This document shows, in pieces, positions 5,786-37,112 of a stretch of 38,174 bases of DNA (its first letter is position 1; each line of letters opens with the position of its first letter). The translations under genes were made by a program, and so were the position numbers. The notes below the pieces were generated by a model that saw only the letters and a list, made by a program, of their open reading frames with translations, ran no database searches and was not told where the DNA came from. The DNA is from a virus. Taxonomy: Duplodnaviria; Heunggongvirae; Uroviricota; Caudoviricetes. The DNA lies in the IMG/VR virus record IMGVR_UViG_2531839455_000003. The stretch is one strand, 5' to 3'.

Positions 5786-8579
5786 TATCCGGGTCGCTTT
5801 CAGCGCCGTTGACAGGCTGACCCGGCCTGCCGAAAACGCCCGCCGCCTGATGGGGCAGTTTGGTGACTCCATCCAGCGAACGCAGGGGGCGATCAAAAAT
5901 CTCGAGCGTCAGGCGCGTTCATTTGAGCGCGCCCGTGACGCTGTCAGTAAAGCGGATGCTGGCATCGTGAAAGCACGACGCCAGCTTAACGCCCTTAATC
6001 AGTTACAACGCACGGGTACAGTGCTCAGCGAAAAACAACAAAAGCTGATGCAGCAGTTAAGCACCCGGCTTGAACGCCTGAATGAATCGCGCACACGGGA
6101 AATTCAGAAAATGCGGGAGCTTGGCGGAGAGCTGAAACGCCACGGCATTTCCCTGACAGGCAGCGATAACACCATCCAGCAGGCCATCAGACGCACCGAA
6201 CAGTACAACAACCAGCTTGAACGCGAACGGCAGGCGCTTGCGCGTGTAACGCGGGCGCGTGAGCGGTATTCGCGCGCGCAGGAAACAGCGGGAAAACTGA
6301 AAACAGGTGGTGCGCTGGCAATTGGTGCGGCAGCGGCGGGCGGCTATGCTGCCGGGCGTTTTTTGCAGCCTGCGATCGGGTTCGGCAAAGAGATGTCCCG
6401 CGTTCAGGCACTGACGCGAATCGACCAGAACAGCCCGCAGTTTAAGGCGCTGCGTGAGCAGGCGTTAAAACTTGGCTCTGAAACGCAGTTCACCGCAGGC
6501 GATGCCGCCAGTGGACAGGCATTTCTTGCAATGGCTGGCTTCACTCCGCAGGCCATTCAGGCTGCGCTTCCCGGCGTGCTGAGCATGGCAACGGCTGGCG
6601 GTATGGATCTCGGCGAGACGGCAGATATTGGCTCAAATATCCTGACGCAGTTCGGCCTTTCTGCTGACCAGATGGACCGGGTCGGTGACACACTCACCGC
6701 AGCGTTTACCCGTACCAACACTGACCTTCGCGCACTGGGCGAAACCATGAAATATGCAGGTCCGGTGGCGGGTAAGCTGGGAATATCGCTGGAGCAGGCC
6801 GCAGCGATGGCTGGCGTGCTGGCGAATATGGGCATCAGAGGGAGTGATGCCGGGACGGCAATGCGTGCCAGCCTGGCTCGTCTGGCATCACCGCCAAAGG
6901 CGGCGGCAGAAGCTCTGAAAGAGCTGGGCGTGTCCGTCTCGGATGCCGGGGGCAAAATGCGCCCGATGGAGGATGTGCTGGCCGACCTTTATAAAGCCAC
7001 CCGCAAATACGGGGAAGTTGACCGGGTATCGTTCTTTAAGGACATTGCCGGAGAAGAGGCTTTCACATCGTTTATGGCGCTCGTTGATGCAGCGGGTGAC
7101 GGTTCCTTACCCAAACTGAGAAAAGAACTTGAAGGCGCGCGCGGTGAGGCTGAACGCACAGCAAAGGTTATGGCCAACAACCTTGACGGCGATCTGAAAT
7201 CACTCGGCAGTGCATGGGAAGGGGTGCGCATCCGCATTGCAGATCTGATTGACGGTCCGCTGCGTTCTGTCACGCAGTGGCTCACGCGGGTGGTCTCAAA
7301 AGTGACGGCACTGGCGCAGGCCCATCCGGCACTGACGCGCCAGTTACTGATAGCGGGAGGTGCACTGCTGGCGACAACAGCAACGGTTGGTTCGTTGTCT
7401 CTGGTTATTGGGGTGCTTCACGGGAAGCTGGCTACGTTACGTCTCGGTTTTTCTCTCCTGACCGGATCAATGAATGCTGTCAGGATCCTGCCAGCACTAT
7501 GGGGAATGGTGACGGGTTCCGTTTCTTTACTGGGAGGCGCTATCGGGGCGCTGATCAGTCCGGTTGGTCTTATCGTGGCTGCGCTTGCCGGAGCTGCCGT
7601 TCTTATCTGGAAATACTGGGATCCCATCAGGGCATTTTTTGCCGGGGTGTTCAGCGGGATTATGGAAAGGCTGACCCCGTTGCGCGAAACCTTTGAACGG
7701 TTTGGTCCTGTTTTTGACGCAATCGGAAGCGGGATCAGCCAGGTGTTTAACTGGTTTAAATCGCTGCTGTCACCGATGGAGTCCAGCAAGGAAACGCTGG
7801 ATAAATGTACCAGTGCTGGCGAGATATTCGGTAACGTTCTTGGCGGTGCGTTACAGCTTGTTCTGACACCTGCAAAAATGCTACTGGATACGCTGGCGTG
7901 GATACTTGAAAAACTTGGCGTCCTTCCGGATGAAGCGGAAAAGGCGCGCAAGAAAATCGAAGACGCACAGCGTGCGGCCATTCTTCAGGACAAGGTTGCC
8001 TTGCTTCAGGGGGACCTTGCGAAAATCAATCCGCCGAAGCCTGTGGAAAATGGCAATGGCACCGGAGGTGATAAACCCAAAGACAACAAACCGCTCACAG
8101 ACAGCAATACCGGGACGCTACGCAGACTCAGCAAAATTGCTGATAACACAGGTAAGCTGGTTGATGAGACGAAAAAACGCATTGGCCCTGGCGATATTGT
8201 CTTTAAGAACCTGCCCCGCGCACTTGCTGTTCGTGGGGAGTGGCAGGAGCGGAAGATTGCGCAGGTCAGTAAGCCTGCCCCCGCAATTAATATCACACCC
8301 GTAGTCCCGGCTCCGCTGCCTCCGGCGCTGGTCCCTGTTGTTGCGGCCAGCTCCCGCCCGGTGGCGGAGGCCATACGATCGCCAGTGGCATCAGTTCCTG
8401 CAGCTTCCCGTAATCGGGAGCCTGCTGTCTCCAGATTTGGCGGTGAAATTCATGTTCATCTGCATAACGTTGTTACGCAGAATCCCCGCGAACTGGCGAA
8501 ACTGGTCGGTGAAATGGTCAGGGCAGAGATGGAACGGCGCGCCCGTGCCGGACGTGGCAGTTTTTACGATAAAGATTGA
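5763..8579 (+). CDS. T: tail tape-measure protein gpT
   Basis: 938 aa, coiled-coil-rich N-terminus, hydrophobic Gly/Ala-rich middle; follows E/E'. Confidence 0.92.
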   Translation: MQIMKTLDIRVAFSAVDRLTRPAENARRLMGQFGDSIQRTQGAIKNLERQARSFERARDAVSKADAGIVKARRQLNALNQLQRTGTVLSEKQQKLMQQLSTRLERLNESRTREIQKMRELGGELKRHGISLTGSDNTIQQAIRRTEQYNNQLERERQALARVTRARERYSRAQETAGKLKTGGALAIGAAAAGGYAAGRFLQPAIGFGKEMSRVQALTRIDQNSPQFKALREQALKLGSETQFTAGDAASGQAFLAMAGFTPQAIQAALPGVLSMATAGGMDLGETADIGSNILTQFGLSADQMDRVGDTLTAAFTRTNTDLRALGETMKYAGPVAGKLGISLEQAAAMAGVLANMGIRGSDAGTAMRASLARLASPPKAAAEALKELGVSVSDAGGKMRPMEDVLADLYKATRKYGEVDRVSFFKDIAGEEAFTSFMALVDAAGDGSLPKLRKELEGARGEAERTAKVMANNLDGDLKSLGSAWEGVRIRIADLIDGPLRSVTQWLTRVVSKVTALAQAHPALTRQLLIAGGALLATTATVGSLSLVIGVLHGKLATLRLGFSLLTGSMNAVRILPALWGMVTGSVSLLGGAIGALISPVGLIVAALAGAAVLIWKYWDPIRAFFAGVFSGIMERLTPLRETFERFGPVFDAIGSGISQVFNWFKSLLSPMESSKETLDKCTSAGEIFGNVLGGALQLVLTPAKMLLDTLAWILEKLGVLPDEAEKARKKIEDAQRAAILQDKVALLQGDLAKINPPKPVENGNGTGGDKPKDNKPLTDSNTGTLRRLSKIADNTGKLVDETKKRIGPGDIVFKNLPRALAVRGEWQERKIAQVSKPAPAINITPVVPAPLPPALVPVVAASSRPVAEAIRSPVASVPAASRNREPAVSRFGGEIHVHLHNVVTQNPRELAKLVGEMVRAEMERRARAGRGSFYDKD

Positions 8580-22395: not shown

Positions 22396-24147
22396 ATGAT
22401 TCAGGACGCTTTTGTGCGCCAGCGTGCGCGGCAACTTTACTGGCAGGGTTATCCGCCCGCAGAAATATCACGTCTGATGGGAATAAACCCGAACACGATT
22501 TATGCGTGGAAAAAACGCGACCAGTGGGATGAAACGCCACCCGTGCAGCGTGTCACGCAGTCCATCGATGCGCGCCTCATCCAGCTCACTGAAAAACAGA
22601 ATAAAACAGGTGGTGACTTCAAGGAAATAGACCTGCTGACCCGGCAGCTTAAAAAACTGCATGATGGCCAGCCGGATGCGACGGCCACAGGAAAGAAAGG
22701 CCGGGCGAAAAAACTCAAAAATCATTTCACGCCGGAACAGATTGCCGCACTGCGGGAAAAAATCATCAGCAGGCTGGAGTGGCATCAGCGGGGCTGGTTT
22801 GACTCCCTGACCCTTTGCAGGGAAGCCGGGATACGTAACAGGATGATCCTGAAATCCCGACAGATTGGGGCGACCTGGTATTTTGCACAGGAAGCTCTGC
22901 TGATGGCGCTGCGTGACGATGTGGCGCAACCTTACCAGCGTAACCAGATTTTTTTGTCTGCGTCGCGTCGTCAGGCGTTCCAGTTTAAAAGCATTATTCA
23001 GAAGGCCGCGGCTGAAGTTGATGTGGAGCTGAAAGGGGGCGATAAAATCATCCTCTCCAACGGCGCAGAGCTGCATTTTCTCGGCACTTCTGCTGCGTCG
23101 GCACAGTCCTATACGGGCAATTTTTATTTTGATGAATTTTTCTGGGTCAGTCGCTTTGCTGAACTGCGCAAGGTGGCTGGCGCTATGGCAACCCTCAGCG
23201 GACTGCGGCGCACATACTTCTCCACGCCATCCACCGAAACGCACGAGGCATACGCCTACTGGAACGGCGACCGCTGGAACGAGAAAAAGGCCTCGCATAA
23301 ACGCCAGCGTTTTTCTGTGGACTGGAAAACGCTGCATAACGGGCTTATCTGCCCTGACCGGACGTGGCGGCAAATTGTCACGCTGGAAGATGTGGTTAAT
23401 CACGGCTGGAAACACACCGATATTGATGAAATTCGTGATGAAAACACCGAAGACGAGTTCCTCAATCTCTATATGTGTGAGTTTGTTCGCGAAGGGGAAT
23501 CGGCATTTAACCTGAATATCCTGATTGGCTGCGGTGTTGACGGATACGACGACTGGAAAGACTGGAAACCTTTTGCTCCCCGCCCGATGGGGAATCGTCC
23601 GGTATGGATTGGGTATGACGCAAACGGCAGCAGTGGCAACGGCGACAGCGGCGCGGTGTCCGTGGTGGTTCCTCCGGCTGTTCCTGGTGGCCGTTTTCGA
23701 ACGGTGGAGACGCGACGCGTTCAGGGGCTGGAGTTTGAAGAACAGGCCAGAGTCATTGAAGAGTTCACGTGTCGCTACAACGTGGAACACATCGGCATTG
23801 ATGTGACGGGCGGAAACGGGGAGGCTGTTTATCAGATAGTGAAGCGGTTTTTCCCTGCTGCTATTCCGTACACCTTCACGCTGTCATCCAAACGGTCGCT
23901 GGTACTGAAAATGCTGCAAATAATGCGTGCCGGACGGTGGGAATACGATCGCGCCGAACGCGAGCTGGTCGCGGCCTTTAACGCCGTGCGTAAGGTGAAA
24001 ACACCGGGCGGCTTTATCACTTACGAAACGGACCGCGCGAGGGGGATCAGCCACGGCGACCTTGCGTGGGCAACCATGCTTGCTGTCATTAACGAACCAA
24101 TTGGCGGCGAAGGAGAAAACGAGCGTTTCACGGTTATGGAGTTCTGA
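22396..24147 (+). CDS. P: terminase large (ATPase) subunit gpP
   Basis: 583 aa; N-terminal HTH-like region followed by the ATPase/nuclease body. Confidence 0.93.
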   Translation: MIQDAFVRQRARQLYWQGYPPAEISRLMGINPNTIYAWKKRDQWDETPPVQRVTQSIDARLIQLTEKQNKTGGDFKEIDLLTRQLKKLHDGQPDATATGKKGRAKKLKNHFTPEQIAALREKIISRLEWHQRGWFDSLTLCREAGIRNRMILKSRQIGATWYFAQEALLMALRDDVAQPYQRNQIFLSASRRQAFQFKSIIQKAAAEVDVELKGGDKIILSNGAELHFLGTSAASAQSYTGNFYFDEFFWVSRFAELRKVAGAMATLSGLRRTYFSTPSTETHEAYAYWNGDRWNEKKASHKRQRFSVDWKTLHNGLICPDRTWRQIVTLEDVVNHGWKHTDIDEIRDENTEDEFLNLYMCEFVREGESAFNLNILIGCGVDGYDDWKDWKPFAPRPMGNRPVWIGYDANGSSGNGDSGAVSVVVPPAVPGGRFRTVETRRVQGLEFEEQARVIEEFTCRYNVEHIGIDVTGGNGEAVYQIVKRFFPAAIPYTFTLSSKRSLVLKMLQIMRAGRWEYDRAERELVAAFNAVRKVKTPGGFITYETDRARGISHGDLAWATMLAVINEPIGGEGENERFTVMEF

Positions 24148-25193
24148 TGAGCAGAAAAAATAAAAAAGTGCGCATGAGTTCACGCATTGATCTCGCTGAT
24201 GCGCTCAGGAAAGAATCATCGCTCAGTGCATTCACATTTGATGGTCCTTATCGCCTGACCGGGCATGACCTGCTGGACAATATGTACTGTGCTGATAACG
24301 GGCGGTGGTATGAAACCCCGGTGGACTGGTACGGTCTGGCAAGAGCAGCCCGGCAAACGTCCTGGCATCAGTCTGCGCTTTACTTTAAGCGCAATGTATT
24401 ACTCGGTTGCTACATCCCGCACCCGCTGCTTTCCCGGCAGGATTTCTCGGCGCTGGCGCTGGACTGGTTTGTGTTCGGTAACGCATTCCTTGAGCTTCGA
24501 AGCAATATGCTCGGCGAACCGCTTAAATTACGGCACGCACTGGCGAAATACATGCGACGCGGAAGCGATCTTGAATCATGGTGGTATGTGCAGGATGGCA
24601 AGGACGCGTTCCAGTTTCGCCCTGGCAAAGTGTGCCACCTGATGAATCCGGACATTAACCAGGAAATTTACGGCATGCCGGAATATCTTGGCGCATTACT
24701 CTCGGCCAGCCTGTCTCATTCGGCGGACATGTTCAGAAAACTGTATTACGACAATGGATCCCACGCCGGGTGCATCATCTACATCGGTGCAGCGCAGGTG
24801 AACCGCGAAAGCATGGACTCCCTGAAAGAAACGTTACAGGGTGCGCGTGGTGGTGGTGCGTTTAAAAACGTGCTCATCCATGCGCCCAACGGGGGCAAAG
24901 AGGGGGTGCAAATTTTGCCGTTCCAGCAGATCACAGCAAAAGATGAGTTCATGAATGTTAAGGCGGCATCCCGTGATGATGTGCTGGCTGCGCACCGCGT
25001 TCCGCCGCAACTGATGGGGGCGATGCCGGGCGAAAAAAGTGCGTTTGGTGATGTGGAGAAGGCCGCGCGGGTTTACGCAATTAACGAGCTGATGCCCGTC
25101 ATGGAGGCCATGAAGCACATCAATGACTGGCTTGGCGAAGAGGTGATCCGCTTTAACCCTTACGCACTGTTAGACACCCAGCCCACATCCTGA
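24147..25193 (+). CDS. Q: portal (capsid portal vertex) protein gpQ
   Basis: 348 aa; overlapping stop/start with P (ATGA). Confidence 0.93.
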   Translation: MSRKNKKVRMSSRIDLADALRKESSLSAFTFDGPYRLTGHDLLDNMYCADNGRWYETPVDWYGLARAARQTSWHQSALYFKRNVLLGCYIPHPLLSRQDFSALALDWFVFGNAFLELRSNMLGEPLKLRHALAKYMRRGSDLESWWYVQDGKDAFQFRPGKVCHLMNPDINQEIYGMPEYLGALLSASLSHSADMFRKLYYDNGSHAGCIIYIGAAQVNRESMDSLKETLQGARGGGAFKNVLIHAPNGGKEGVQILPFQQITAKDEFMNVKAASRDDVLAAHRVPPQLMGAMPGEKSAFGDVEKAARVYAINELMPVMEAMKHINDWLGEEVIRFNPYALLDTQPTS

Positions 25194-25220
25194 CGCGCTT
25201 CGCTTGTCTGCTGCTTCGCC

Positions 25221-25243
25221 GGGGCATAAAAAATTTATGCCCC
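25221..25243. other. perfect inverted repeat GGGGCATAAA-AAA-TTTATGCCCC just after Q
   Basis: 10-bp arms; no T tract follows, so it is more likely a protein-binding or packaging-region element than an intrinsic terminator. Confidence 0.4.
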
Positions 25244-25617
25244 GACTCTCCAGCTCCTGTATCAGTCAGATAATTTCACGACGCTTTCCTGCTGATTGCC
25301 ATCATCGACAGTCAGACTCTTACGCAATCCCACCGCGTTGACTGCATGTTCTCGCCGTCTCAGTGCGATTTTGACGGCCTTACCTTTCACCCCATCAAAT
25401 CAAAAGCCCTCACGTCTTTTTCACGCTCAGCGTGAGAAATACAGCCATTCTGTTGTGTCGCTGCGACATCGTTCAGGGGATGCTATTTACCCCCTGAAAC
25501 GCGGGCTGTTCCCCCGTCACCTGCGCGCAGAAAAAATGCGTTTTTTTGTGCACGCACGGATCCTTGACGGATCCAGCCACCATGCGGGCCGGAAGGGCAA
25601 AAAGTCGTTCAAAAAAA

Positions 25618-25654
25618 TTGTGCAAATTTGTGCACTATTGTGCATTTGTATAGT
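25618..25654 (+). promoter_or_regulatory. three helically phased TTGTGCA direct repeats with a candidate -10 (TATAGT) upstream of the cargo operon
   Basis: TTGTGCA at 25618, 25628 and 25638 (exact 10-bp spacing); TATAGT at 25649-25654; about 70 nt upstream of ATG 25724. Confidence 0.4.
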
Positions 25655-25723
25655 GAAAAAAATATAGCAGAAAGTATACTTAGCGCCTTGTGGGCTACGT
25701 TAACTTTGCAGGAACATTTGGAA

Positions 25724-27103
25724 ATGAAAAAAATCAATAAAGAAGATTCTAAAAGAACCTTTTTACGTGGATGGTTGCGATTTCTTCGTAGCGTTGAGAG
25801 AGCTAAGAAAAAAAAGCCTGCGCAAGAGAAAAATGGTAGTCTTCGTTTTTCCGATGAAACAACTCCTGTCCAAAACCAAGTCGCTACGTTCATTGAAAAT
25901 ATATCGATTATAAAAGAGTATGACTCATCAATTCTTCGTCGTGACGCAGAGAAGATATTAATACCTAAATATTTTGACTTATATGACAATCCAGAGAAAT
26001 CTCTGCTATTTATTAGTGCAGCCACAAAATTAATTGCAAGAGGTAAATGGAAATCATATATTTTTGATTACAAGAAAAACAAAAAACACTGTCTTGGTCT
26101 TGAGTGTCTATTAGGTGTTGCTCTTACAGCAGCAAGGCAAAGTAATATAAATTTCAAAGATACGATGATTCAGATTAATGGTATCTACCCTAAAGATGAA
26201 CAGTATCTTGAAATTATCAGGGATGTCGGGCTTGTAAAAGAGATTAGTAATGCTGCACCAGGTAAAGTTCTGGACTCTACTGAAGCATCGAAAAAAGCGA
26301 ATCCGAAGAAACGAATCTTCTCTGCTGATAGTATCGGAAAGGAGAATGCTTCTGCCTTTGCCCATGACAGAAAAAATGTCACTGCTGAAAAATTTACCGC
26401 ATACATAAACGAATGCTTAAATGATCATAATTTAAAACTTGTACATGAGGCAGAAAAGCATTTAACTTCCTGCATGGGGGAACTCCTTGATAATGCGGAG
26501 CGGCATTGTGGGTTAGAGCAACGCCCACGCTGGTATTTGAGAGGTTTTGTTAATAATAACGTACGAAACCCCATATGTGAGTTGGCTGTTTTCAATTTTG
26601 GGAAAACTATCAGCGAAACTTTTGATAATTTACCTGAGGATCATTTTTCATTAAGTCAACAAGTTAATCCATACATAAATAAGCATATTAAGAAAAAGGG
26701 TATGTTTAAGGAAGGATTAACAACAGTAGCGGCCTTGCAAGGGCGGGTGAGTTGTAAAAACGAGAAAGAAACTGACAGTTCTGGCACCGGAACAATTGAA
26801 TTATTGAAGTTATTTCAAGATATGCATGATAATCTTAAAAAAATGGGAAGAGATATTAAAGGTGGGATAAAAATGACTTTAATATCTGGTAGTACTCATA
26901 TTAACTTTGATGGATCATATAAATTAAAGCAAAGGTTGGTTAATGACGAGGAAAGTGACATTTTTACTTACCCTTTTAATGATGTAGGGCTTGAATCTGA
27001 ACCGGATCGCAACTATCTTAAGCGTATGAAGGATGCTCGATTTCCTGGAGTTATGATCAATATTCGTTTTCCTCTACCAGAAAACGCCACCCAGCGAACT
27101 TGA
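25724..27103 (+). CDS. cargo gene 1: predicted GHKL/Bergerat-fold ATPase-like protein (possible Ser/His-kinase-type), function unknown
   Basis: 459 aa from the first ATG; AT-rich. N-box-like motif GELLDNAERH (E-x3-N-A-x2-H), then a degenerate G1-like FNFGKT and a G2-like SSGTGTIELL glycine loop in the C-terminal half. Confidence 0.7.
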   Translation: MKKINKEDSKRTFLRGWLRFLRSVERAKKKKPAQEKNGSLRFSDETTPVQNQVATFIENISIIKEYDSSILRRDAEKILIPKYFDLYDNPEKSLLFISAATKLIARGKWKSYIFDYKKNKKHCLGLECLLGVALTAARQSNINFKDTMIQINGIYPKDEQYLEIIRDVGLVKEISNAAPGKVLDSTEASKKANPKKRIFSADSIGKENASAFAHDRKNVTAEKFTAYINECLNDHNLKLVHEAEKHLTSCMGELLDNAERHCGLEQRPRWYLRGFVNNNVRNPICELAVFNFGKTISETFDNLPEDHFSLSQQVNPYINKHIKKKGMFKEGLTTVAALQGRVSCKNEKETDSSGTGTIELLKLFQDMHDNLKKMGRDIKGGIKMTLISGSTHINFDGSYKLKQRLVNDEESDIFTYPFNDVGLESEPDRNYLKRMKDARFPGVMINIRFPLPENATQRT

Positions 27104-27113
27104 GGACAGGTAC

Positions 27114-27458
27114 ATGAAAATGGCTGACATCACCATAGATTTCAATAAGTTAGTAAAAGATAGTAACAAGAAACTTTTTGCTGGACGTTCTAATGGGCGC
27201 CAGGCCTATGATTACTTTAATATAGGGAAATTTTGCACAACCAGTAATGATAGATTATATCTATTGATCCCCAAGGGAATTGTTGTATCAAGCTCATACT
27301 TTCTAGGTATGCTTGAAACGGTTTTGCCGAAATTTTCTTCGCCTAGCGAATTTTATAGTCGCACTGTACTTGATGGTCGTGAATATAAAGAAGGTATGCT
27401 TTCTGAATTAGATAGAGCTGTAAGGAGAGGCTTACATAAAAATGTTCCCTTCTTTTAA
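27114..27458 (+). CDS. cargo gene 2: small cytoplasmic protein, possible STAS-like (anti-sigma-antagonist fold) partner
   Basis: 114 aa, 10 nt after the gene 1 stop (SD GGACAGG). Motif LYLLIPKGIVVSSSYFLGMLETV resembles the beta-strand plus DSSG serine loop of SpoIIAA/RsbV-type STAS domains; assigned by motif only. Confidence 0.6.
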   Translation: MKMADITIDFNKLVKDSNKKLFAGRSNGRQAYDYFNIGKFCTTSNDRLYLLIPKGIVVSSSYFLGMLETVLPKFSSPSEFYSRTVLDGREYKEGMLSELDRAVRRGLHKNVPFF

Positions 27459-28251
27459 AAATATTTTTCAAATCAAAATGACAGCGCTGTCTGTCATTTT
27501 TTTTATATTCCCCGCAGCTTGCTCTGTGACAGATTTTTCCAATAAAGAAAACATTGAATGTAATGAGTCACTTTATCCAAACACGCCTTTTTATATTTCC
27601 GATTCAGGACTTAGTGGTATATCATCACCGTTTTTGTTATCCGGAAACCCGAATGATGGCTTGATGTTTTGTGAAAAGGCAAACGACACCTTTCATAAGT
27701 TATCTCTGGCAAGGGATAACAAAAAAGATTTATTTGCTAATTATTTCAAAGATGTTCCAAATTCCTATGATATATATAATATTGTAAAGGTTCCGGAAAA
27801 TGGTCCAGAGTGGATTTCTATTGGCATCTCTTTATTTGCTTTAGTTTCATCCTTTGTTATTCCTTGTGTTCAACATAGAAAAGAACGTAAAGAAGCTATT
27901 AATGAAGGGTATTGGGTAAGAGAAGTAATTATGCCTAAAATTAATGGGTTGGCATTCGATGTTGTGCAAAGTTTTAAAAACTCCATGGCATTATCAGAAG
28001 AGGAGTTTCTTAGTGTATTCAGTAATACTCTTTTACCAAAACTAGGAGAGTTACGGGATTCATTATATTTGTTTAATAGTTTTCCAGAATTAAATGCAGA
28101 TATTGAAAATCTAGAAAGTATTTGTGACTCCTTGGAGGAAGAAGTTTCCAATCATATAGACTCGCCTAATGAAATAAGAATTTCTGATATATCAATGTTT
28201 CATTCCAAATTAATACAGAAATTAATTTTACTTCATAAGAAGATAGGTTGA
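27442..28251 (+). CDS. cargo gene 3: membrane protein (N-terminal signal/anchor plus internal TM helix), candidate effector
   Basis: 269 aa. Start overlaps the gene 2 end by 17 nt; SD AAGGAGAGG upstream. N-terminal hydrophobic segment MTALSVIFFIFPAAC, internal TM EWISIGISLFALVSSFVIPCV, acidic C-terminal domain. Confidence 0.65.
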   Translation: MFPSFKNIFQIKMTALSVIFFIFPAACSVTDFSNKENIECNESLYPNTPFYISDSGLSGISSPFLLSGNPNDGLMFCEKANDTFHKLSLARDNKKDLFANYFKDVPNSYDIYNIVKVPENGPEWISIGISLFALVSSFVIPCVQHRKERKEAINEGYWVREVIMPKINGLAFDVVQSFKNSMALSEEEFLSVFSNTLLPKLGELRDSLYLFNSFPELNADIENLESICDSLEEEVSNHIDSPNEIRISDISMFHSKLIQKLILLHKKIG

Positions 28252-28296
28252 TTTTCAAGGCCTCCTTATTCCTAGGGCGGCCTTAGCTCTATATTT

Positions 28297-31044
28297 CTAT
28301 CGTGTTCGATGCAATAAACTGATTTTTTTGCGAGCATGTTTAGTGGTTTCACTGATTCTCTGTGCGTGCTCTGCGTCGCGGATGGCGCGCAGCATGTCAG
28401 AAAGTACGGTAACGGGTGTTTTCATGGTGTTCTGGTCTTGCTGAAGTGTGGATGCCAGGCGTGCGGCGGCTTCAGGGTCTGATGCCTCTAGTTGTTCCAG
28501 ATAGCTGGCGACCGGGTTATGGCGGATCTCCGTGCTGCTTACGCCGTGATTACGACTCAGGCGTTGCCAGAGCTGCGTGATTCGGCTGTCCGGGCGGGTA
28601 TCCTGTTTGCGTACAATTTCAAATCCCTGCGGTGCAATGATGCTGCCGCCAACGTACAGACTGCCGCCCCGTAACAGGTGCTGCATCTGCTGTTCACCGA
28701 TATGCAGGCCGAGAGATTCAGCAGACTCCCGCCATTCTTTAGCGAGTAACTCGTGGTTATCAGGCAAAGGCTGTGGCTGTTTGCGGCTCTGTGTCCAGTT
28801 CTGCATTTCATCACTGCTGTTTTTTGCCTGTTTGTCACGCAGCGAACGCATCAGTGCCCGGCGTTCGTGCCGTTTCAGTGAGCGCATCCATTCATTCACG
28901 TCAACGCCTTCAGGAAGCCGCGGCCACGGTGCTGGCCGTTCTTCCGGCTGTTCTGTCCCGTTGTTGTCCGTTTCCTGTACACGGGGACAGTTATTGCCAC
29001 GAGTCCAAGGGGCGGCAGGGCCGCCCTGAAGGTCAAAACCATTTTCGCGGGCGCTGTCTTCCGTTTCCGGTTTACGTCTTACCAGTTTCCAGTTATCCGG
29101 ATGCGTGCACACACGGGAGGATTCCCCGATGAGTGGTGACCAGATCCCGTAAATCTGTACGCTCTGTTCGCCGTAATCATTCAGCTCATCTGCGAGGTCG
29201 TAGGCGGTGCGAATCAGGTAGTCTTTGCGTGGAACAAGTACGCCGCCCTGTTTTTCAATGTAGGTGGCAAAACACCCGGCATCGGCGGCAGCGAGTACCG
29301 CATCCATTGCGTCATCTTTCAGTCGTTGCGGGCCTTCCGGGTTGCGTGCCATCTGGCTGGCAAGGCGGCGCAGTTCACGCCACACCTGACGGGAGGGGAT
29401 GCCAAAGAACTGGAACTGGCGGACCCGATGAAGGCGCGCCCAGCCGATGGCGCGCTCCACACTCTCGGCCATTGATTTTCCGGTTTCGTGGTCAACGCGT
29501 GGCTTGCCCGTTTTCGGGTCGATGCCATCCACGGCGCGGCTGTCCAGGTTCTTTCCGATGTAGGTCGCGATATAGCTGGTTGGTGTGCCTTTTGAGCCGT
29601 CGACATACTCCGCCTTAAAGCGCGGAGTAATATCATTGCCCAGCTCGTGGCGGTCTTCCTGAATGGCAATATCGCGGGTGATGGCCACGATGCTGTCGAT
29701 TTCTTCCGGATGAGCAAAGACCATCATATGCCAGTGCACGGTGCCGTCATGGTGAGGCTCCACCGTGCGGATGCCATACCAGCGAAGACCGTCGCGGTTC
29801 AGTTTTTTGCGGACCGCCGCAAAAAACGTGTTAACCAGGTAATCGCTGGAGTCGCGCATGGTGGCCCCGTTCCATTTGGGATTCGGATGACCGTTCTCTG
29901 TTGTGGCGTGGTATTTTGACGGGCAGGTGACAGTCAGAAACACCGCTTTGTCGCCACGGGCTTCGGCCAGAAGTTCCAGCCCCTTCATGGTGGCCATCAT
30001 TTCTGCCTTACGGTGAACCGGGTTACTTACTCCCGCGTAATACACCGTCTCGAGATCAATCGTGAACCCGTCTTCGTTTTCCAGCATGAAACTTTTCAGG
30101 AAATCGCGTGTTTTCTCGCGCTGTGCGCGAAACTCGCTTAACGCGTCCTGGCTCAAATAGGGCGATGTTTTTCTGGAAACCAGACAGGCGGCGCGGAGTT
30201 GTTCTTCTCTCCACTCGCAACGTAACAGCCACAGTTTGCGTTTCCACCATTCCGCACAGGTCAGGCGAAGGATTGCGCCCGGCAGCAGCTCCGTGTCCGG
30301 TTCGTTCCTCCGGTCTTTATCTGTTGTCAGTGCGTCATAATGTGGAGGCATGATGTGCAGGTGTAACGCCATGCGGGCCAGCATCTGATACGCCTTCAGC
30401 GTTACATCCATGGTCAGTTCGCCATCGGTCGCGCCAAAGCCATCGCAGAGTTTTTCGAAGGTGCTGCTGAACATCGCCGCCGTCATGGTGGCCAGCGTCT
30501 GTATCTGGTGTTTGTTGAGCTGCGGCAGGTAAAGCAAATCGTCCAGGCGTTCGCGTCCGGCAAGGGAGCGATAACCCGGTGTCAGCCAGTGTCCGTCAGT
30601 GCGATCCAGACGTTCGAATATTTTGCGCAGGGTTCCGCGTGCATAGCGTTCCGCCTGCCAGCTCTTTTTGCCTTTCCGGCGATCGGCTTCCTGTTTTTTG
30701 CGCAGGAAGGAGAGGTGGCGAATAAGCGGATCGCGCAGATAGGACGGCAGCAGGCGCAGCGAGGCCATGGCTTCATCCACCGCGCCGCGTGCCTGTTTTC
30801 TGGCGTCTCCTGCCAGTGCGATGGTTTTGTCCTGTTTTTCCTGTGCGTCCAGGCTTTTATTAATCAGGTTGCCCAGCGGCGTGGCGGAGAACGCCGCATC
30901 AGCCATTTTCTGGCGGCGCTCGTTCTCTGCCCGGTAGGCATCCAGCCAGGAGGAAAGCACGGATTCAGGAGCGGGGATCCCCGTTCCTTCACGCCCTACT
31001 GCGTGGCGCGGTTGTTGCCAGTCCCTGATGTACTCTGTCGTCAT
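28297..31044 (-). CDS. A: replication initiation endonuclease gpA (rolling-circle, HUH-type)
   Basis: 915 aa with HHDGTVHWHMMVF (HUH-like) and a downstream Tyr-containing region; longer than P2 A, so an extension or different start is possible. Confidence 0.88.
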   Translation of the reverse strand: MTTEYIRDWQQPRHAVGREGTGIPAPESVLSSWLDAYRAENERRQKMADAAFSATPLGNLINKSLDAQEKQDKTIALAGDARKQARGAVDEAMASLRLLPSYLRDPLIRHLSFLRKKQEADRRKGKKSWQAERYARGTLRKIFERLDRTDGHWLTPGYRSLAGRERLDDLLYLPQLNKHQIQTLATMTAAMFSSTFEKLCDGFGATDGELTMDVTLKAYQMLARMALHLHIMPPHYDALTTDKDRRNEPDTELLPGAILRLTCAEWWKRKLWLLRCEWREEQLRAACLVSRKTSPYLSQDALSEFRAQREKTRDFLKSFMLENEDGFTIDLETVYYAGVSNPVHRKAEMMATMKGLELLAEARGDKAVFLTVTCPSKYHATTENGHPNPKWNGATMRDSSDYLVNTFFAAVRKKLNRDGLRWYGIRTVEPHHDGTVHWHMMVFAHPEEIDSIVAITRDIAIQEDRHELGNDITPRFKAEYVDGSKGTPTSYIATYIGKNLDSRAVDGIDPKTGKPRVDHETGKSMAESVERAIGWARLHRVRQFQFFGIPSRQVWRELRRLASQMARNPEGPQRLKDDAMDAVLAAADAGCFATYIEKQGGVLVPRKDYLIRTAYDLADELNDYGEQSVQIYGIWSPLIGESSRVCTHPDNWKLVRRKPETEDSARENGFDLQGGPAAPWTRGNNCPRVQETDNNGTEQPEERPAPWPRLPEGVDVNEWMRSLKRHERRALMRSLRDKQAKNSSDEMQNWTQSRKQPQPLPDNHELLAKEWRESAESLGLHIGEQQMQHLLRGGSLYVGGSIIAPQGFEIVRKQDTRPDSRITQLWQRLSRNHGVSSTEIRHNPVASYLEQLEASDPEAAARLASTLQQDQNTMKTPVTVLSDMLRAIRDAEHAQRISETTKHARKKISLLHRTR

Positions 31045-32090: not shown

Positions 32091-32921
32091 TTACTTCACC
32101 GGAACAAACGGAACAGCGGTGTTGCTGGTCATGTATTGCGGCAGCGTGCCGTTCCATTTGTTGATTGCTTCCAGCTCCATAACGCCGGGATTCTGGCGCA
32201 GAGCTTCACCGCGTAAACGAATGGCGTCGGCTTCAGCCTGGGCTTTTGTGCGAATGGCATCAGCCTGTCCGGCAGCTTCTGCGCGCAACATGTTGGCTTC
32301 TGCTTCGCGTTGCTTGACTTCCTGTTCGCGTTGCAGGGTTTTCTGGTTTGCCGTGACTTTGGCATTAATGCTGTCGATAACGGTTGACGGGTACTCCGGC
32401 TTACCCACATATGAGAGGCTCATTACCTGAATACCGATAGGTGTCATTTCCTCCTGAATGTCTTTAAGAGCTGCATCCAGTAGTTCAGATTTCCCGCCGT
32501 CGATAAATTTGTCGGTGGTCATTTTGCTGGCCAGTCGGTTGAGTGCATCGGCGATCTTCTGGCGCAGGTCAGTGTCGGTAATGTCATCCACGCCTTTGCG
32601 GTAGGTCTGAAACACTGTAGTAACTTTGGATGGATCAACCTTGTAGGCCACACCGATGTGATAGCCGATGGTTGTGCCGTCACTCATCTGGAAGCTGAAC
32701 GGCTCATCGTAGGTCTTCATTTGTTTGAAGGTCGGGAAGATGTAAACCTCGGTATTCCAGCCAGTCCAGTAGCGGCCAACGCCAACCACTTCGCCGACGC
32801 CTTTGTCGTCGCCCAGTTTGTTGACTTTGATGCCCACATTACCTGGCTCAACGCGATCGCAACCAACCAGCAGGATGGCGGCAAAAAGCGGGATAATCTG
32901 AAAGAGTTTGAATTTCTTCAT
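32091..32921 (-). CDS. SPFH/band-7 (stomatin/prohibitin-like) lipoprotein
   Basis: 276 aa; lipoprotein signal MKKFKLFQIIPLFAAILLVGC; band-7-like core; C-terminal Ala/Glu/Gln-rich coiled-coil (REAEANMLRAEAAGQADAIRTKAQAEADAIRLRGEA). Confidence 0.82.
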   Translation of the reverse strand: MKKFKLFQIIPLFAAILLVGCDRVEPGNVGIKVNKLGDDKGVGEVVGVGRYWTGWNTEVYIFPTFKQMKTYDEPFSFQMSDGTTIGYHIGVAYKVDPSKVTTVFQTYRKGVDDITDTDLRQKIADALNRLASKMTTDKFIDGGKSELLDAALKDIQEEMTPIGIQVMSLSYVGKPEYPSTVIDSINAKVTANQKTLQREQEVKQREAEANMLRAEAAGQADAIRTKAQAEADAIRLRGEALRQNPGVMELEAINKWNGTLPQYMTSNTAVPFVPVK

Positions 32922-33121
32922 TGTTTGATTTCCTTGATGTACTTACTGAAAAGGCGAACAACGCCTGCCGGGTACAGCATGGCAATGAAAATGCCCAGCA
33001 ATACCAGGAAGGAGCTGTCTGATGAAATCATTCGGGGGAGTAGTCCTGCATACAGAATGAGAGAAACGAGGACGCATACCAGCGCCCACATGTATGCGCG
33101 AAACCAGGTCTTTTTGTTCAT
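32918..33121 (-). CDS. small two-TM membrane protein translationally coupled to the SPFH gene (NfeD/YqiJ-like partner?)
   Basis: 67 aa with two hydrophobic helices; 4-nt overlap with the SPFH start. Confidence 0.65.
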   Translation of the reverse strand: MNKKTWFRAYMWALVCVLVSLILYAGLLPRMISSDSSFLVLLGIFIAMLYPAGVVRLFSKYIKEIKQ

Positions 33122-34774: not shown

Positions 34775-35029
34775 TTAAACAAAATCTCTTAATGGTTTAC
34801 CTGATTCAATGCGCTCAATTGCATCGTTAATGGCCATGTATGCGGCGTGATCACCTGCATAGCGTGCGCATTCCTGTAGTGACTTTAATCCGCTGATAGT
34901 ATCGCTTTTTGCTTCCGATAAAGGTTTCACCGTATTTAATGCATCACGGGCATTATTATCTATGAGTCGGTGTATGATAAGAGTGTAGGCCGAGGCTATC
35001 TCTACCATGTTTTTTGTCGTTGTTGCCAT
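34775..35029 (-). CDS. hypothetical early protein
   Basis: 84-aa ORF. Confidence 0.55.
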   Translation of the reverse strand: MATTTKNMVEIASAYTLIIHRLIDNNARDALNTVKPLSEAKSDTISGLKSLQECARYAGDHAAYMAINDAIERIESGKPLRDFV

Positions 35030-35032
35030 TGG

Positions 35033-35383
35033 TTAATTCCCCCGTGGATGCTGAAAACTACGTCCTGCAATTAAGCGGTCAACCGTGCGTAGCGCTTCGT
35101 ACAATGTAAAATCCTGTCCGAACTGATTGTCGCCGCAGCTCAATGCAAAAATGCGGTTTCCGGTAAACGGATTGCGTGGGCATTTGTGGACCACAATTCC
35201 AGCTTTCTCAATCAGCCAGGTATGCTCGCCGATTTGTTTTACTGGGTAGCCATCCGGCGTTGCGTGTGTTTCGCTCAGGCTGTAGCGAGAGTTGCTACGT
35301 GATGCACTGGTAGCGAAACGGTTAGCATGGCGTTCCGCACCGTTGCGGAAGCGCTGCTGTGAATAATTGCGCTGTAGTTTCAT
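35033..35383 (-). CDS. hypothetical early protein
   Basis: 116-aa ORF; first gene of the co-directional string running down to A. Confidence 0.55.
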   Translation of the reverse strand: MKLQRNYSQQRFRNGAERHANRFATSASRSNSRYSLSETHATPDGYPVKQIGEHTWLIEKAGIVVHKCPRNPFTGNRIFALSCGDNQFGQDFTLYEALRTVDRLIAGRSFQHPRGN

Positions 35384-35519
35384 ATTAAAACTCTGTACCT
35401 TCGGTAAGGTGTACTCGTGTCACCTTGTATTGATTTGTGGTATTTTTTTGTGTGTCTAGGACTTGGACTGGCCGGTTCAGGTCCTGGCTTATGTTTAATT
35501 AAATTGTTAAGGGGTTTTC

Positions 35520-35711
35520 ATGTCAGAAGATAAAAAAGTTGTTAATTTGTTGAGTGAACTTAGTGCTGCTCTGGATAACATTAACCCTCCCAGGGTAAAA
35601 ACGACGGGTGATAAAGACGCATTAAACGCAGAGATTCATATATTACTGGCGTTAGTAACTGACAAAATTCAGCGTAAATACCCACCTGTCACACAACTGG
35701 TTGATTTTTAA
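35520..35711 (+). CDS. small AT-rich ORF (63 aa), unknown function
   Basis: Strong SD AAGGGG 5 nt upstream of the ATG; convergent with the 140-aa gene. Confidence 0.5.
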   Translation: MSEDKKVVNLLSELSAALDNINPPRVKTTGDKDALNAEIHILLALVTDKIQRKYPPVTQLVDF

Positions 35712-35717
35712 TTTGAT

Positions 35718-36140
35718 TTATGCCGGGCTGCTCCCGGCATCTTCTAGCTGCCATAATGTCTCGTCACCTGATAGAGCAAAACGAAATGAGTGAAGTATAT
35801 CCTCCCGAGAGAAGCTCACGGCTACAGCTGCGGGAAAGTCAAATATAATCCCACCTTCATTTTTAAAACGATTACGCAATTGATAGGCTATCGGTTTGAT
35901 TTGTGCAGGAAGAGTATCTATATCTCTTCCATTGACAACAGAATCTTTGTTTTCAAGTACTGATTTAGCGATTAGATATAGATGCCAGTAACTGGTTACA
36001 ATTGTTACTCCTGTGATGTGTCGTAAATTAATTGCAATTCGTCCGTTATTATGTTTTTCCGCAAGGTATTTCAGGTTATCAATTAATGGTTGGTCATTTT
36101 TTGAAATAGTTATTGTGAAATCTGGCGTGTTTGTTTTCAT
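35718..36140 (-). CDS. AT-rich hypothetical protein (140 aa from ATG 36140)
   Basis: Start trimmed from the long track ORF (35718..36383) to ATG 36140 to remove the overlap with the upstream gene; AT-rich composition differs from the neighbours. Confidence 0.5.
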   Translation of the reverse strand: MKTNTPDFTITISKNDQPLIDNLKYLAEKHNNGRIAINLRHITGVTIVTSYWHLYLIAKSVLENKDSVVNGRDIDTLPAQIKPIAYQLRNRFKNEGGIIFDFPAAVAVSFSREDILHSFRFALSGDETLWQLEDAGSSPA

Positions 36141-36144
36141 ACGA

Positions 36145-36666
36145 TTAGTTGCCTCTGTTGTTTCTGAGTTGGTCCAGTTTTGAGCTTCTGCCTGTATAAA
36201 CTCGCTTACCGTTAATGGTCTGGCAGTCTTCTTTATTAGCTGGAGAGAACTTCCTTTTCTGGCGGTCATACGTCCAGTAACTTTTCCAGTTGTGCCATTC
36301 TGGGGGCTCGTGCTCTGGTAGCTCATCAGCCAACTTGTCCCACTCTTTGGCGTTAAACCACCATACTCCGTCTGAGTTTTCATCTTCCGGGTTTGTGCGC
36401 GTCTTGTGTCCCGGCATTTGACCGCGATGAATGGCTACGCGCAGTGCAGATTTTGTTAGCCCAATATATGCCGCGCCTTTTTCCAGAGAGCAAAGCCCGG
36501 CGATCGGACCATCCAGCCGTAAAGTCGCTCCTTTTTTGTAGGAACGCTTTTTCTTGTTTTCTTCGTGTTCGTCGTCGTTGGCGGCATCAATGGATCCGCT
36601 GAGTGCGTCACTTTCCTGAAGTGGTTGGTGGTCAGATAACTCTTTATCGGCAATGAAGTCCCGCAT
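36145..36666 (-). CDS. first early-operon protein, possible HTH DNA-binding (Cox/excisionase-like role unproven)
   Basis: 173 aa; ATG 36666 with SD AGAGGA; divergent from the repressor gene; contains LTKSALRVAIHRGQMPGHK. Confidence 0.55.
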   Translation of the reverse strand: MRDFIADKELSDHQPLQESDALSGSIDAANDDEHEENKKKRSYKKGATLRLDGPIAGLCSLEKGAAYIGLTKSALRVAIHRGQMPGHKTRTNPEDENSDGVWWFNAKEWDKLADELPEHEPPEWHNWKSYWTYDRQKRKFSPANKEDCQTINGKRVYTGRSSKLDQLRNNRGN

Positions 36667-36725
36667 TTGTTATCCTCTTGCGTTGGTGCGCTTGTCGCGC
36701 CTTGTGATGGTTTGTTTTGGCTTGT

Positions 36726-36781
36726 AAAGATAACCAAAAGGTTATCTTTGTGCGAGAGGTTAATACTCAAATGGTTATCTT
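36726..36781. promoter_or_regulatory. operator region of the lysogeny switch: palindrome AAAGATAACC-AAAA-GGTTATCTTT plus a third GGTTATCTT half-site over the repressor start codon
   Basis: Perfect 10-bp arms at 36726-36735 and 36740-36749; extra half-site at 36773-36781; lies between divergent starts at 36666 and 36771. Confidence 0.5.
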
Positions 36782-37112
36782 GTCAATAGACTATGCAAAA
36801 AAGTTACGTCAGATACGTAAGGCGGAAGGGTTAACACAAAAGCAGTTTGCGGATATTACTGGGTTGTCTTTGGCAACCATAAGGAATTACGAATCGGGGC
36901 AAAAGAACGCTAGAGCAAAAATCGTTGAGGCGGTTCTGCAAGTCGATCGCTTTGAAAAATACATGCTGTGGCTAATAAAAGATAAGACGCTACCTGTCGC
37001 CGGGCAGATTGCTCCGGCTCTCTCTCTTGATGGATCTATTCAGTCGGAGGGCGATCAGGTTTCAATCGGTATTACCCAAAAATCACCCCGATCAGGCCGC
37101 AATGTTGGCTGA
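36771..37112 (+). CDS. immunity repressor (HTH XRE/Cro-C1 type), P2 C-like in position
   Basis: HTH LRQIRKAEGLTQKQFADITGLSLATIRNYESGQ; upstream of int on the same strand; SD GAGAGG; ATG 36771 preferred over the longer track ORF. Confidence 0.78.
   Translation: MVILSIDYAKKLRQIRKAEGLTQKQFADITGLSLATIRNYESGQKNARAKIVEAVLQVDRFEKYMLWLIKDKTLPVAGQIAPALSLDGSIQSEGDQVSIGITQKSPRSGRNVG

What the first reader, a model, noticed from the sequence alone, without database searches (positions are those of the whole stretch)
35384..36140. Second AT-rich mini-island: convergent 63-aa and 140-aa genes interrupting the early gene string
Between the repressor-proximal early gene (36145..36666) and the string of minus-strand early genes sits an AT-rich stretch. 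It carries a plus-strand 63-aa ORF with a strong SD (35520..35711) converging on a minus-strand 140-aa ORF (35718..36140). The composition and the strand switch suggest inserted cargo, possibly a toxin-antitoxin or small immunity or defence pair, rather than core early genes.
Basis: inference. Interest (0 to 1): 0.45.

Follow-up and report, generated by a model that had tools for sequence, protein, structure and literature searches.

The report
Mobile convergent gene pair behind cox
A 744-bp AT-rich cassette of two genes of unknown function sits directly behind the lysis/lysogeny switch gene cox of a P2-family E. coli prophage; close relatives lack it, and the pair travels and diverges as a unit in E. 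coli and Salmonella, but what it does is not known.

Summary
A 63-aa plus-strand gene (35520..35711) converges on a 140-aa minus-strand gene (35718..36140) in a stretch of 38.6% GC, against 51.5% for the window. The window is a P88-like (Xuanwuvirus, P2 family) E. coli prophage.

Comparison with relatives puts the variable cassette at about 35401..36144, between the cox stop codon and the leader of the first conserved early gene (DUF4761). Phage P88 has nothing there. Prophages with a 96%-identical cox carry a 68-aa membrane-protein gene instead.

The pair is in 271 of 5426 complete E. coli genomes, including ST131. A diverged version occurs in Salmonella prophages (32% and 42% identity), and a probable third version in E. 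coli. In every case the large gene reads with the early operon and the small gene reads head-on against it.

Neither protein matches Pfam, NCBIfam, PHROGs, PADLOC, PDB sequences or Foldseek libraries. "Inserted cargo" is therefore supported; "toxin-antitoxin or defence" is untested and has no homology support.

My best guess is inference: the two proteins work against each other and their expression follows the prophage state. The small protein would be made in the lysogen from its own promoter, and the large one only when the early promoter fires. Interest is moderate.

The parts
35401..36144 (.). Variable two-gene cassette (744 bp, 38.6% GC) between the cox stop codon and the leader of the DUF4761 gene
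   Evidence: blastn against L003 and L004: the shared flanks end at 35390-35400 and 36145. Composition.
35718..36140 (-). 140-aa gene of unknown function. It is the second cistron of the early operon, with its ATG 4 nt after the cox stop. It has no homologue outside E. coli and Salmonella prophages.
   Evidence: dN/dS 0.19-0.58 in relatives. No family or fold match.
35520..35711 (+). 63-aa gene of unknown function, read head-on against the early operon. From the sequence pattern I read it as a helical hairpin (no structure was predicted for it). Conserved residues include the P23-P24 turn (NINPPR in the window and Salmonella) and K53-Y54-P55.
35438..35446 (+). Predicted extended -10 promoter element TGGTATTTT for the 63-aa gene. 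A -35-like GTGTCA lies at 35417-35422 with an 18-nt spacer. The predicted transcription start is near 35453.
   Evidence: Exactly one TGnTAnnnT element lies upstream of the small gene in every lineage examined. Chance gives one in 11-38% of shuffles per sequence. This is a prediction only.
35456..35487 (+). 14-bp RNA hairpin at the predicted 5' end of the 63-aa mRNA. It is stable only on the plus strand because three of its pairs are G-U.
   Evidence: -21.9 kcal/mol on the plus strand (z -2.6) against -7.8 on the minus strand (z -0.5).
35509..35514 (+). Ribosome-binding (Shine-Dalgarno) sequence AAGGGG of the 63-aa gene
   Evidence: Most other alleles read AAGAGG.
35720..35740 (.). 8-bp GC-rich hairpin ATGCCGGG-CTGCT-CCCGGCAT inside the last codons of the 140-aa gene, 9 nt after the 63-aa stop. 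No U-tract follows on the early-operon strand and only a weak one on the plus strand.
   Evidence: The equivalent hairpin in L012 is followed by UUUUCUUUU in the sense of the small gene.
36145..36666 (-). Cox-family switch and excision gene (173 aa). [quoted passage not shown]
   Evidence: Pfam Phage_Cox E 1.9e-7, phrog_23196 E 1e-116, annotation.
35033..35383 (-). DUF4761 gene, the first conserved early gene after the slot and its left-hand anchor. It shares only 7-17 nt of leader with relatives, so it has no conserved promoter of its own.
   Evidence: Pfam E 1.3e-65. Present in 1314 E. coli genomes. Flank limits.
36727..36781 (.). Three copies of AAGATAACC in the region between cox and the C repressor gene. 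I read them as C repressor operators at the early/lysogenic promoter switch (context only). None occurs in the cassette.

Best explanation
**What it is (shown).** A horizontally mobile two-gene accessory cassette occupies a variable slot immediately after cox in P2-family (P88-like) prophages. It is not part of the core early programme.

**Layout (shown).**
- The 140-aa gene is read as the second cistron of the early operon, 4 nt after the cox stop.
- The 63-aa gene lies on the opposite strand, and its stop is 6 nt from the stop of the large gene.
- The conserved early genes downstream (DUF4761 through to the replication gene gpA) share no upstream promoter region with relatives. Early transcription therefore has to cross the small gene in antisense.

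**Expression logic (inferred).**
- The small gene has its own extended -10 promoter, followed by a 5' stem-loop that forms only on its own strand.
- It would be expressed while the C repressor keeps the early promoter shut, that is, in the lysogen.
- The large protein would appear only on infection or induction. Head-on transcription and 3'-overlapping RNAs would then turn the small gene down.

**Function (most speculative step).** Because the two proteins are inherited and diverge together, they probably act on each other. The large protein would be an effector and the small one its cognate neutraliser or regulator. The system would serve phage-phage or phage-host conflict, or host takeover. 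It is dispensable, since near-identical phages lack it.
For: **The slot is variable.**
- Cassette limits come from blastn against relatives.
- The slot is empty in P88, in strain 2-1 and in an O157 prophage.
- A 68-aa membrane-protein gene fills it next to two different cox types. A 64-aa gene fills it in another relative.
- The AT-rich composition is shown.

**The pair occurs in several backgrounds.**
- 271 of 5426 E. coli genomes carry it. About 290 genomes carry a cox at least 95% identical, so the same switch exists with and without the pair.
- The same convergent layout is found in Salmonella prophages with three different integrase and repressor sets.
- A probable third E. coli lineage also has it.
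- Homology: small protein E 1e-16; large protein 32-33% identical; third lineage hhalign E 2e-4 and 1e-3.

**Signals on the DNA.**
- The large gene starts 3-4 nt after the cox stop.
- A TGnTAnnnT element lies upstream of the small gene in every lineage.
- The 5' hairpin is stable on one strand only.
- The 3' ends lie 6 nt apart in the window and overlap by 4-31 nt in Salmonella.
- The only homology left of the cassette starts 7-17 nt before the DUF4761 ATG.
Against: - There are no expression data. The promoter is a weak consensus match with an appreciable chance expectation, and the generic promoter scan did not list it.
- In three E. coli genomes (the L006 type) the large-gene homologue occurs without the small gene, which is replaced by unrelated 172-aa and 107-aa genes. 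The pairing is therefore not obligatory.
- Neither protein resembles any known effector, toxin, inhibitor or regulator.
- Only two of the three lineages are solidly homologous.
Confidence: 0.4

Rival explanations
1. The cassette is a regulatory add-on to the lysis/lysogeny switch. It sits where phage 186 has cII and its promoter pE. The plus-strand promoter would fire against the early operon and towards cox, C and int. That would dampen leaky early transcription into the replication genes, or feed the lysogenic operon. The two proteins would tune this promoter.
For: The cassette always lies directly after the cox-like gene, whatever the immunity type. The small gene points towards C and int. 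Early transcripts must cross it. In 186, cII and the leftward promoter pE lie at the equivalent position.
Against: There is no similarity to 186 CII (hhalign probability 0.06%). Neither protein has a DNA-binding domain, and both have near-neutral pI. No C operator lies in the cassette. Prophages with a 96%-identical switch lack the cassette. In L012 a strong terminator ends the small transcript before it reaches cox.
Confidence: 0.2
2. The large protein is an early anti-defence (counter-immunity) protein made first on infection, and the small gene is its regulator or a second inhibitor.
For: The slot is the first to be expressed in the early operon. The cargo is small, soluble, fast-turnover, without homologues and narrow in host range, which is typical of anti-defence loci (my own knowledge).
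Against: No homology to any known anti-defence protein was seen in Pfam or PHROGs, though no dedicated anti-defence library was available. A regulator without a DNA-binding fold, on the opposite strand, is unlike the known regulator genes that accompany anti-CRISPR genes.
Confidence: 0.15
3. The pair is a classical toxin-antitoxin or abortive-infection module: a 140-aa toxin and a 63-aa antitoxin that stabilise the prophage or kill infected cells.
For: The sizes are typical of such pairs. The cassette is AT-rich mobile cargo and the two genes are inherited together.
Against: The genes are convergent rather than one co-directional operon. No toxin or antitoxin family matches. No PADLOC hit. The small protein has no DNA-binding domain. 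The supposed toxin would be driven by the lytic promoter.
Confidence: 0.1
4. These are two unrelated accessory genes that happen to lie side by side, with no functional link.
For: The slot holds many different small cargo genes. The L006-type loci keep the large gene without the small one. Between L012 and L022, synonymous divergence (dS) is about ten times higher in the large gene than in the small one, which shows recombination inside the cassette.
Against: Both genes are retained together, in the same layout, through divergence to 32%/42% identity and probably 18%/30%. This holds between different flanking genes in at least five prophage backgrounds.
Confidence: 0.1
5. Both are conserved core early genes of this phage group.
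For: The 140-aa gene is co-oriented with the early operon and abuts cox.
Against: Both are absent from P88 and from most of the 1314 E. coli genomes with the DUF4761 early module. Only 3 of 50,697 phage records carry them.
Confidence: 0.02

Closest known systems
Phage morons: accessory genes inserted between core genes, as described for HK97 and lambda (my own knowledge)
   Same: The cassette is present in some relatives and absent from others at sharply defined boundaries. Its base composition is atypical. The small gene has a predicted promoter of its own and is flanked by hairpins.
   Different: Half of the cassette, the 140-aa gene, has no room for a promoter and is read as part of the early operon. 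The two genes converge and are kept together, which is not the usual single-gene, self-contained form.
P2 tin/old hotspot between gpA and gpQ (Rousset et al. 2022, PMC9122126)
   Same: It is a small locus with high turnover between two conserved genes of a P2-family phage.
   Different: It is at a different position. This window has its own gpQ-gpA hotspot at about 25.2-28.3 kb. No slot behind cox is mentioned in that paper, and no known defence protein was found in it in the loci sampled here.
Phage 186 apl-cII-pE establishment module
   Same: The position is the same: directly after the Cox/Apl gene, with a promoter firing back against the early operon.
   Different: There is no sequence similarity to CII and no helix-turn-helix. 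The backward transcript here encodes a conserved protein. The module is dispensable.
Type II toxin-antitoxin pairs
   Same: Two small, soluble proteins (63 and 140 aa) inherited together on a mobile element.
   Different: They are convergent rather than one operon. There is no known toxin or antitoxin domain, and the larger gene is under a lytic promoter.
Excludons: convergent or overlapping transcription units with opposing functions, described in Listeria (my own knowledge)
   Same: The transcription units face each other head-on and their 3' ends abut or overlap, so transcribing one should suppress the other.
   Different: No transcript data exist here, and opposing functions are assumed rather than shown.

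Membership tests
Phage moron / accessory cassette | Present in some close relatives and absent from others, with sharp boundaries between conserved genes | tested here: met
Phage moron / accessory cassette | Base composition unlike the surrounding phage genes | tested here: met
   GC 38.6% against 51.5%. Third-position GC 29-31% against 51-53%.
Phage moron / accessory cassette | Own promoter and terminator, allowing expression from the repressed prophage | tested here: inconclusive
   The small gene has a predicted extended -10 element in all lineages and flanking hairpins. The large gene has no room for a promoter, being 4 nt after cox. No transcript data.
Type II toxin-antitoxin system | Both genes in one co-directional operon | tested here: not met
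   The genes converge, with stops 6 nt apart. The layout is the same in all relatives.
Type II toxin-antitoxin system | Toxin and antitoxin belong to known superfamilies, and the antitoxin has a DNA-binding domain | tested here: not met
   No Pfam, NCBIfam or PDB sequence match for either protein.
Type II toxin-antitoxin system | One protein is toxic and the other neutralises it | not testable with these tools
   Needs expression experiments.
Known anti-phage defence systems (PADLOC-DB v2) | At least one protein matches a model of a known or candidate defence system | tested here: not met
   No hit for either protein at E <= 1.
P2-family defence hotspot (Rousset 2022) | Located next to cos, between gpA and gpQ | tested here: not met
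   The cassette lies between cox and DUF4761. The window's gpQ (24147..25193) to gpA (28297..31044) interval is a separate AT-rich island.
186-type CII/pE establishment module | Protein homologous to CII, with a helix-turn-helix | tested here: not met
   hhalign probability 0.06%. No helix-turn-helix family above threshold.
186-type CII/pE establishment module | Located directly after apl/cox, with a promoter directed back towards the repressor and integrase genes | tested here: inconclusive
   Position and orientation fit. Promoter activity and read-through into cox, C and int are unknown, and L012 has a strong terminator after the small gene.
Excludon-like convergent pair | Convergent transcription units whose transcripts overlap | tested here: inconclusive
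   The gene layout fits: 6-nt gap here, 4- and 31-nt ORF overlaps in Salmonella. The transcripts themselves cannot be tested here.

The most novel reading that the evidence does not exclude
The pair is a new kind of module that reads the state of the prophage. A small protein made in the lysogen, with exclusion, defence or anti-satellite activity, would be switched off and neutralised by its cognate early protein as soon as the prophage's own early promoter fires. Head-on transcription would enforce the either/or choice. The slot behind cox, where other convergent large-plus-small pairs were also seen (L006, L008), would then be a so-far undescribed hotspot for such modules in P2-family phages.
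Probability: 0.15. Interest if true: 0.65.

Novelty: new variant of a known kind. Interest (0 to 1): 0.4.

Why it matters
- **Frequency.** About 5% of complete E. coli genomes carry this pair, including the pandemic ST131 lineage. The genes are annotated only as hypothetical proteins.
- **Position.** The pair sits at the first expressed position of the prophage's lytic programme, right next to the lysis/lysogeny switch. It could therefore affect prophage stability, induction or competition with other phages and satellites.
- **A possible new variable slot.** If the slot behind cox proves to be a general variable site for cargo, it would add a third one in P2-family phages. The tin/old site (Rousset et al. 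2022) and, from my own recollection, the Z/fun site are already known. It would also be a compact place to look for new conflict genes.
- **Testable design.** The conserved convergent layout gives a clear hypothesis about how a prophage could couple an accessory function to its own state.

Tried and rejected
**Family and sequence searches**
- Pfam, PHROGs, PADLOC and NCBIfam gave nothing for either protein. The only hits were sub-threshold matches to DUF1408 and phrog_5450 by the two near-identical E. coli copies of the large protein, which the diverged homologues did not reproduce.
- PDB sequence searches with single sequences and with profiles gave nothing below E 0.4.
- The exhaustive phmmer search over 1.84 billion representatives found one true relative, P0007. 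The other hits were repetitive giant proteins, which I rejected as compositional artefacts.
- Profile searches of 5.8 billion proteins found only E. coli and Salmonella members.
- Comparisons with 186 CII, Fil and Dhr, with P2 B and Orf78, and with the P88-type derepression protein all showed no relationship.

**Structure**
- AlphaFold2 on the single sequence gave pLDDT 36. With a 6-sequence alignment it gave pLDDT 55 and pTM 0.51.
- Foldseek against PDB and BFVD gave no match with E < 0.1. With a model this poor, that says little.

**Other collections**
- IMG/VR holds only near-identical copies.
- The scan of GTDB species representatives found nothing.
- Only 3 of 50,697 phage records carry the genes.
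- Rfam gave no hit in 34900..36900.

**Other checks**
- No C-operator motif occurs in the cassette.
- Variation within E. coli is too low to estimate dN/dS.
- Literature searches for the protein accessions, for DUF4761 and for a hotspot behind cox found nothing relevant.
- The records vB_EcoM-569R5 and 705R2 are named only in a preprint whose title concerns phages located in clinical-isolate genomes. I did not read it, and I do not count these records as proof of a viable phage.

Full report
**1. What the window is.** The right end of the window carries, in order:
- an integrase (37181.., +);
- a helix-turn-helix C-type repressor (36786..37112, +; Pfam HTH_3 E 2.5e-11);
- a divergently read 173-aa Cox-family protein (36145..36666, -; Pfam Phage_Cox E 1.9e-7, phrog_23196 E 1e-116).

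DNA searches identify the window as a P88-like prophage (genus Xuanwuvirus, family Peduoviridae, the P2 family). In E. coli it is integrated next to dmsA. Three copies of AAGATAACC between cox and C (36727-36781) are probably the repressor operators.

**2.
RefSeq annotates both as hypothetical proteins in identical prophages.
- The small ORF has AAGGGG 5 nt before its ATG.
- The stop codons are 6 nt apart.
- The large ORF starts 4 nt after the cox stop codon. It therefore reads with the early operon, and only the small gene changes strand.
- The segment is 38.6% GC against 51.5% for the window, in the lowest 6.5% of windows of that size. Third-position GC is 29-31% against 51-53% in the flanking cox and DUF4761 genes.

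**3. It is an insertion in a variable slot.**
- blastn against relatives shows that shared sequence stops at 35390-35400 on the left, 7-17 nt before the DUF4761 ATG. On the right it resumes exactly at 36145, the cox stop.
- In phage P88 itself, cox and DUF4761 are 37 nt apart.
- In strain EC361, which has a 96%-identical cox, the slot holds a 68-aa gene for a protein with two hydrophobic segments. The same 68-aa gene sits behind a different, 95-aa cox in two other strains.
- Another relative has a 64-aa gene.
- An O157:H7 prophage with a different immunity region, and strain 2-1, have nothing there.
- The DUF4761 early module is in 1314 of 5426 complete E. coli genomes. A cox at least 95% identical to this one is in about 290. 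The cassette is in 271, all chromosomal and one copy each, including many ST131 strains.

So the cassette is accessory cargo. It is linked to one immunity type but not bound to it.

**4. The two genes form a conserved unit.** Neither protein has relatives outside E. coli and Salmonella.

- **Salmonella lineage.** One real, diverged homologue of the large protein is P0007 (138 aa, 32-33% identical). In Salmonella P2-family prophages it is followed by a convergent 62-aa gene whose product is 41% identical to the 63-aa protein (BLASTP E 1e-16).
- **Different backgrounds.** That Salmonella pair occurs with three different integrase, repressor and cox sets and with different downstream genes.
- **Probable third lineage in E. 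coli.** It has a 131-133-aa gene 3 nt after a 175-aa cox, followed by a convergent 64-aa gene and then DUF4761. It resembles the other two only weakly when each protein is taken alone (hhalign E 1e-3 for the first 45 residues of the large protein, E 2e-4 for the small one). However, it has the same layout in the same slot. Eight complete genomes carry it.
- **One exception.** Three genomes keep the large gene but have unrelated 172-aa and 107-aa genes in place of the small one.
- **Selection.** dN/dS of the large gene is 0.19 and 0.58 in the two comparisons with enough differences. The small gene has too few differences to judge.

**5. What the DNA says about expression.**

*Shown:*
- The large gene has no room for a promoter in either E. 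coli lineage (3-4 nt after cox).
- DUF4761 shares only its ribosome-binding leader with relatives that lack the cassette. It and the genes behind it must therefore be read from the early promoter through the cassette, which means antisense through the small gene.

*Predicted:*
- Every lineage has exactly one TGnTAnnnT (extended -10) element upstream of the small gene. Here it is TGGTATTTT at 35438-35446, and it lies 34-74 nt before the ATG across lineages. Chance would give one in 11-38% of shuffles per sequence, so this is supportive only when taken jointly.
- Three nucleotides after the predicted start lies a 14-bp hairpin (35456-35487). It folds at -21.9 kcal/mol on the plus strand but only -7.8 on the minus strand, because three of its pairs are G-U. 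It would be a structure of the small mRNA and no obstacle to the early transcript.
- A second hairpin (35720-35740) lies in the last codons of the large gene. No U-tract follows in the early direction, and only a weak one in the plus direction. Its counterpart in the third lineage is a canonical terminator for the small gene.
- In Salmonella the two ORFs overlap by 4 or 31 nt with no hairpin between them.
- No repressor operator motif lies in the cassette, and Rfam finds nothing.

**6. What it is not.**
- There are no hits in Pfam, NCBIfam, PHROGs, PADLOC or PDB sequences.
- The best AlphaFold2 model is poor (pLDDT 55). It suggests a mixed alpha/beta protein, and Foldseek finds nothing in PDB or BFVD.
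- The proteins are unrelated to 186 CII, Fil and Dhr, to P2 B and Orf78, and to the P88-type derepression protein.
- Both are soluble and near-neutral (pI 5.6 and 6.4).
- The known P2 defence hotspot lies between gpA and gpQ. In this window that is a separate AT-rich island at about 25.2-28.3 kb.

**7. Most likely mechanism, and how sure I am.**
- I am confident (about 0.9) that this is a mobile accessory cassette in a variable slot behind cox, and that its two genes are real and functionally linked.
- I hold with about 0.4 confidence that their expression is tied to the prophage state. The small gene would be read from its own promoter while the early promoter is repressed. The large gene would be read only when the early promoter fires. 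Head-on transcription and overlapping 3' ends would make the two mutually exclusive, and the proteins would act as an effector and its cognate partner.
- The biochemical activity is unknown.
- Rivals are, in order:
  - a regulatory add-on to the switch, like 186 cII/pE in position but not in sequence;
  - an early anti-defence gene with a regulator;
  - a classical toxin-antitoxin or abortive-infection pair;
  - two unrelated neighbours.
- "Core early genes" is refuted.

**8. Novelty.**
- The kind is known: accessory cargo in a prophage hotspot.
- The two protein families are uncharacterised, with no match in any library searched.
- I found no description of the slot behind cox in the literature searched.
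- The conserved head-on layout at the head of the early operon is distinctive.
- A second, unrelated family of convergent small genes is also present. It has 103-aa and 107-aa members (27% identity, E 9e-9), each overlapping the 3' end of a larger early-sense gene in the same region. This hints at a recurring design.
- I rate the finding a new variant of a known kind, of moderate interest.

Noticed in passing
window 25200..28300: This is the most AT-rich island of the window (minimum GC 0.32). It lies between the portal gene gpQ (24147..25193, +) and the replication gene gpA (28297..31044, -), which is the position of the known P2 tin/old defence hotspot. It holds three ORFs (25628..27103, 491 aa; 27114..27458, 114 aa; 27442..28251, 269 aa) with no Pfam or PADLOC match.
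   Followed up: partly
L006 1234..2053 and L008 6766..7804: A second convergent large-plus-small arrangement lies in the same early region. The small proteins of 107 aa (E. coli) and 103 aa (Salmonella) are 27% identical (E 9e-9). Each overlaps the 3' end of a larger early-sense gene (172 aa and 259 aa), and those two are not clearly related.
   Followed up: partly
L010 229..633 and L034 1440..1844: In some Salmonella prophages a 134-aa protein is encoded directly upstream of the large-gene homologue, overlapping its start. It has weak similarity to the N-terminus of the GpO capsid scaffold protein (Pfam Phage_GPO E 0.018, below threshold).
   Followed up: no
L008 5985..6005 and 6750..6770: An identical 21-nt junction, TTAACGAGGTACAAAATGAAA, precedes and starts both the large-gene homologue and the next 259-aa gene. 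Several cassette proteins share the N-terminus MKLTIED. This looks like a linker sequence that promotes cassette shuffling by recombination.
   Followed up: no
L012 5001..5610 against L022 2136..2739: Synonymous divergence between two E. coli copies of the third-lineage pair is 0.36 in the large gene but 0.03 in the small gene. This indicates a recombination breakpoint inside the cassette, near the hairpin between the genes.
   Followed up: no
window 36727..36781: There are three exact copies of AAGATAACC, two inverted and one further copy, between cox and the repressor gene. No other exact copy occurs in the 38-kb window. They are probably the C repressor operators.
   Followed up: partly
window 32091..33121: An SPFH-domain gene (276 aa) and an overlapping 67-aa gene, annotated as a membrane protein in P88, sit inside the early operon. 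P88 has them too. They are another possible accessory pair and were not examined.
   Followed up: no
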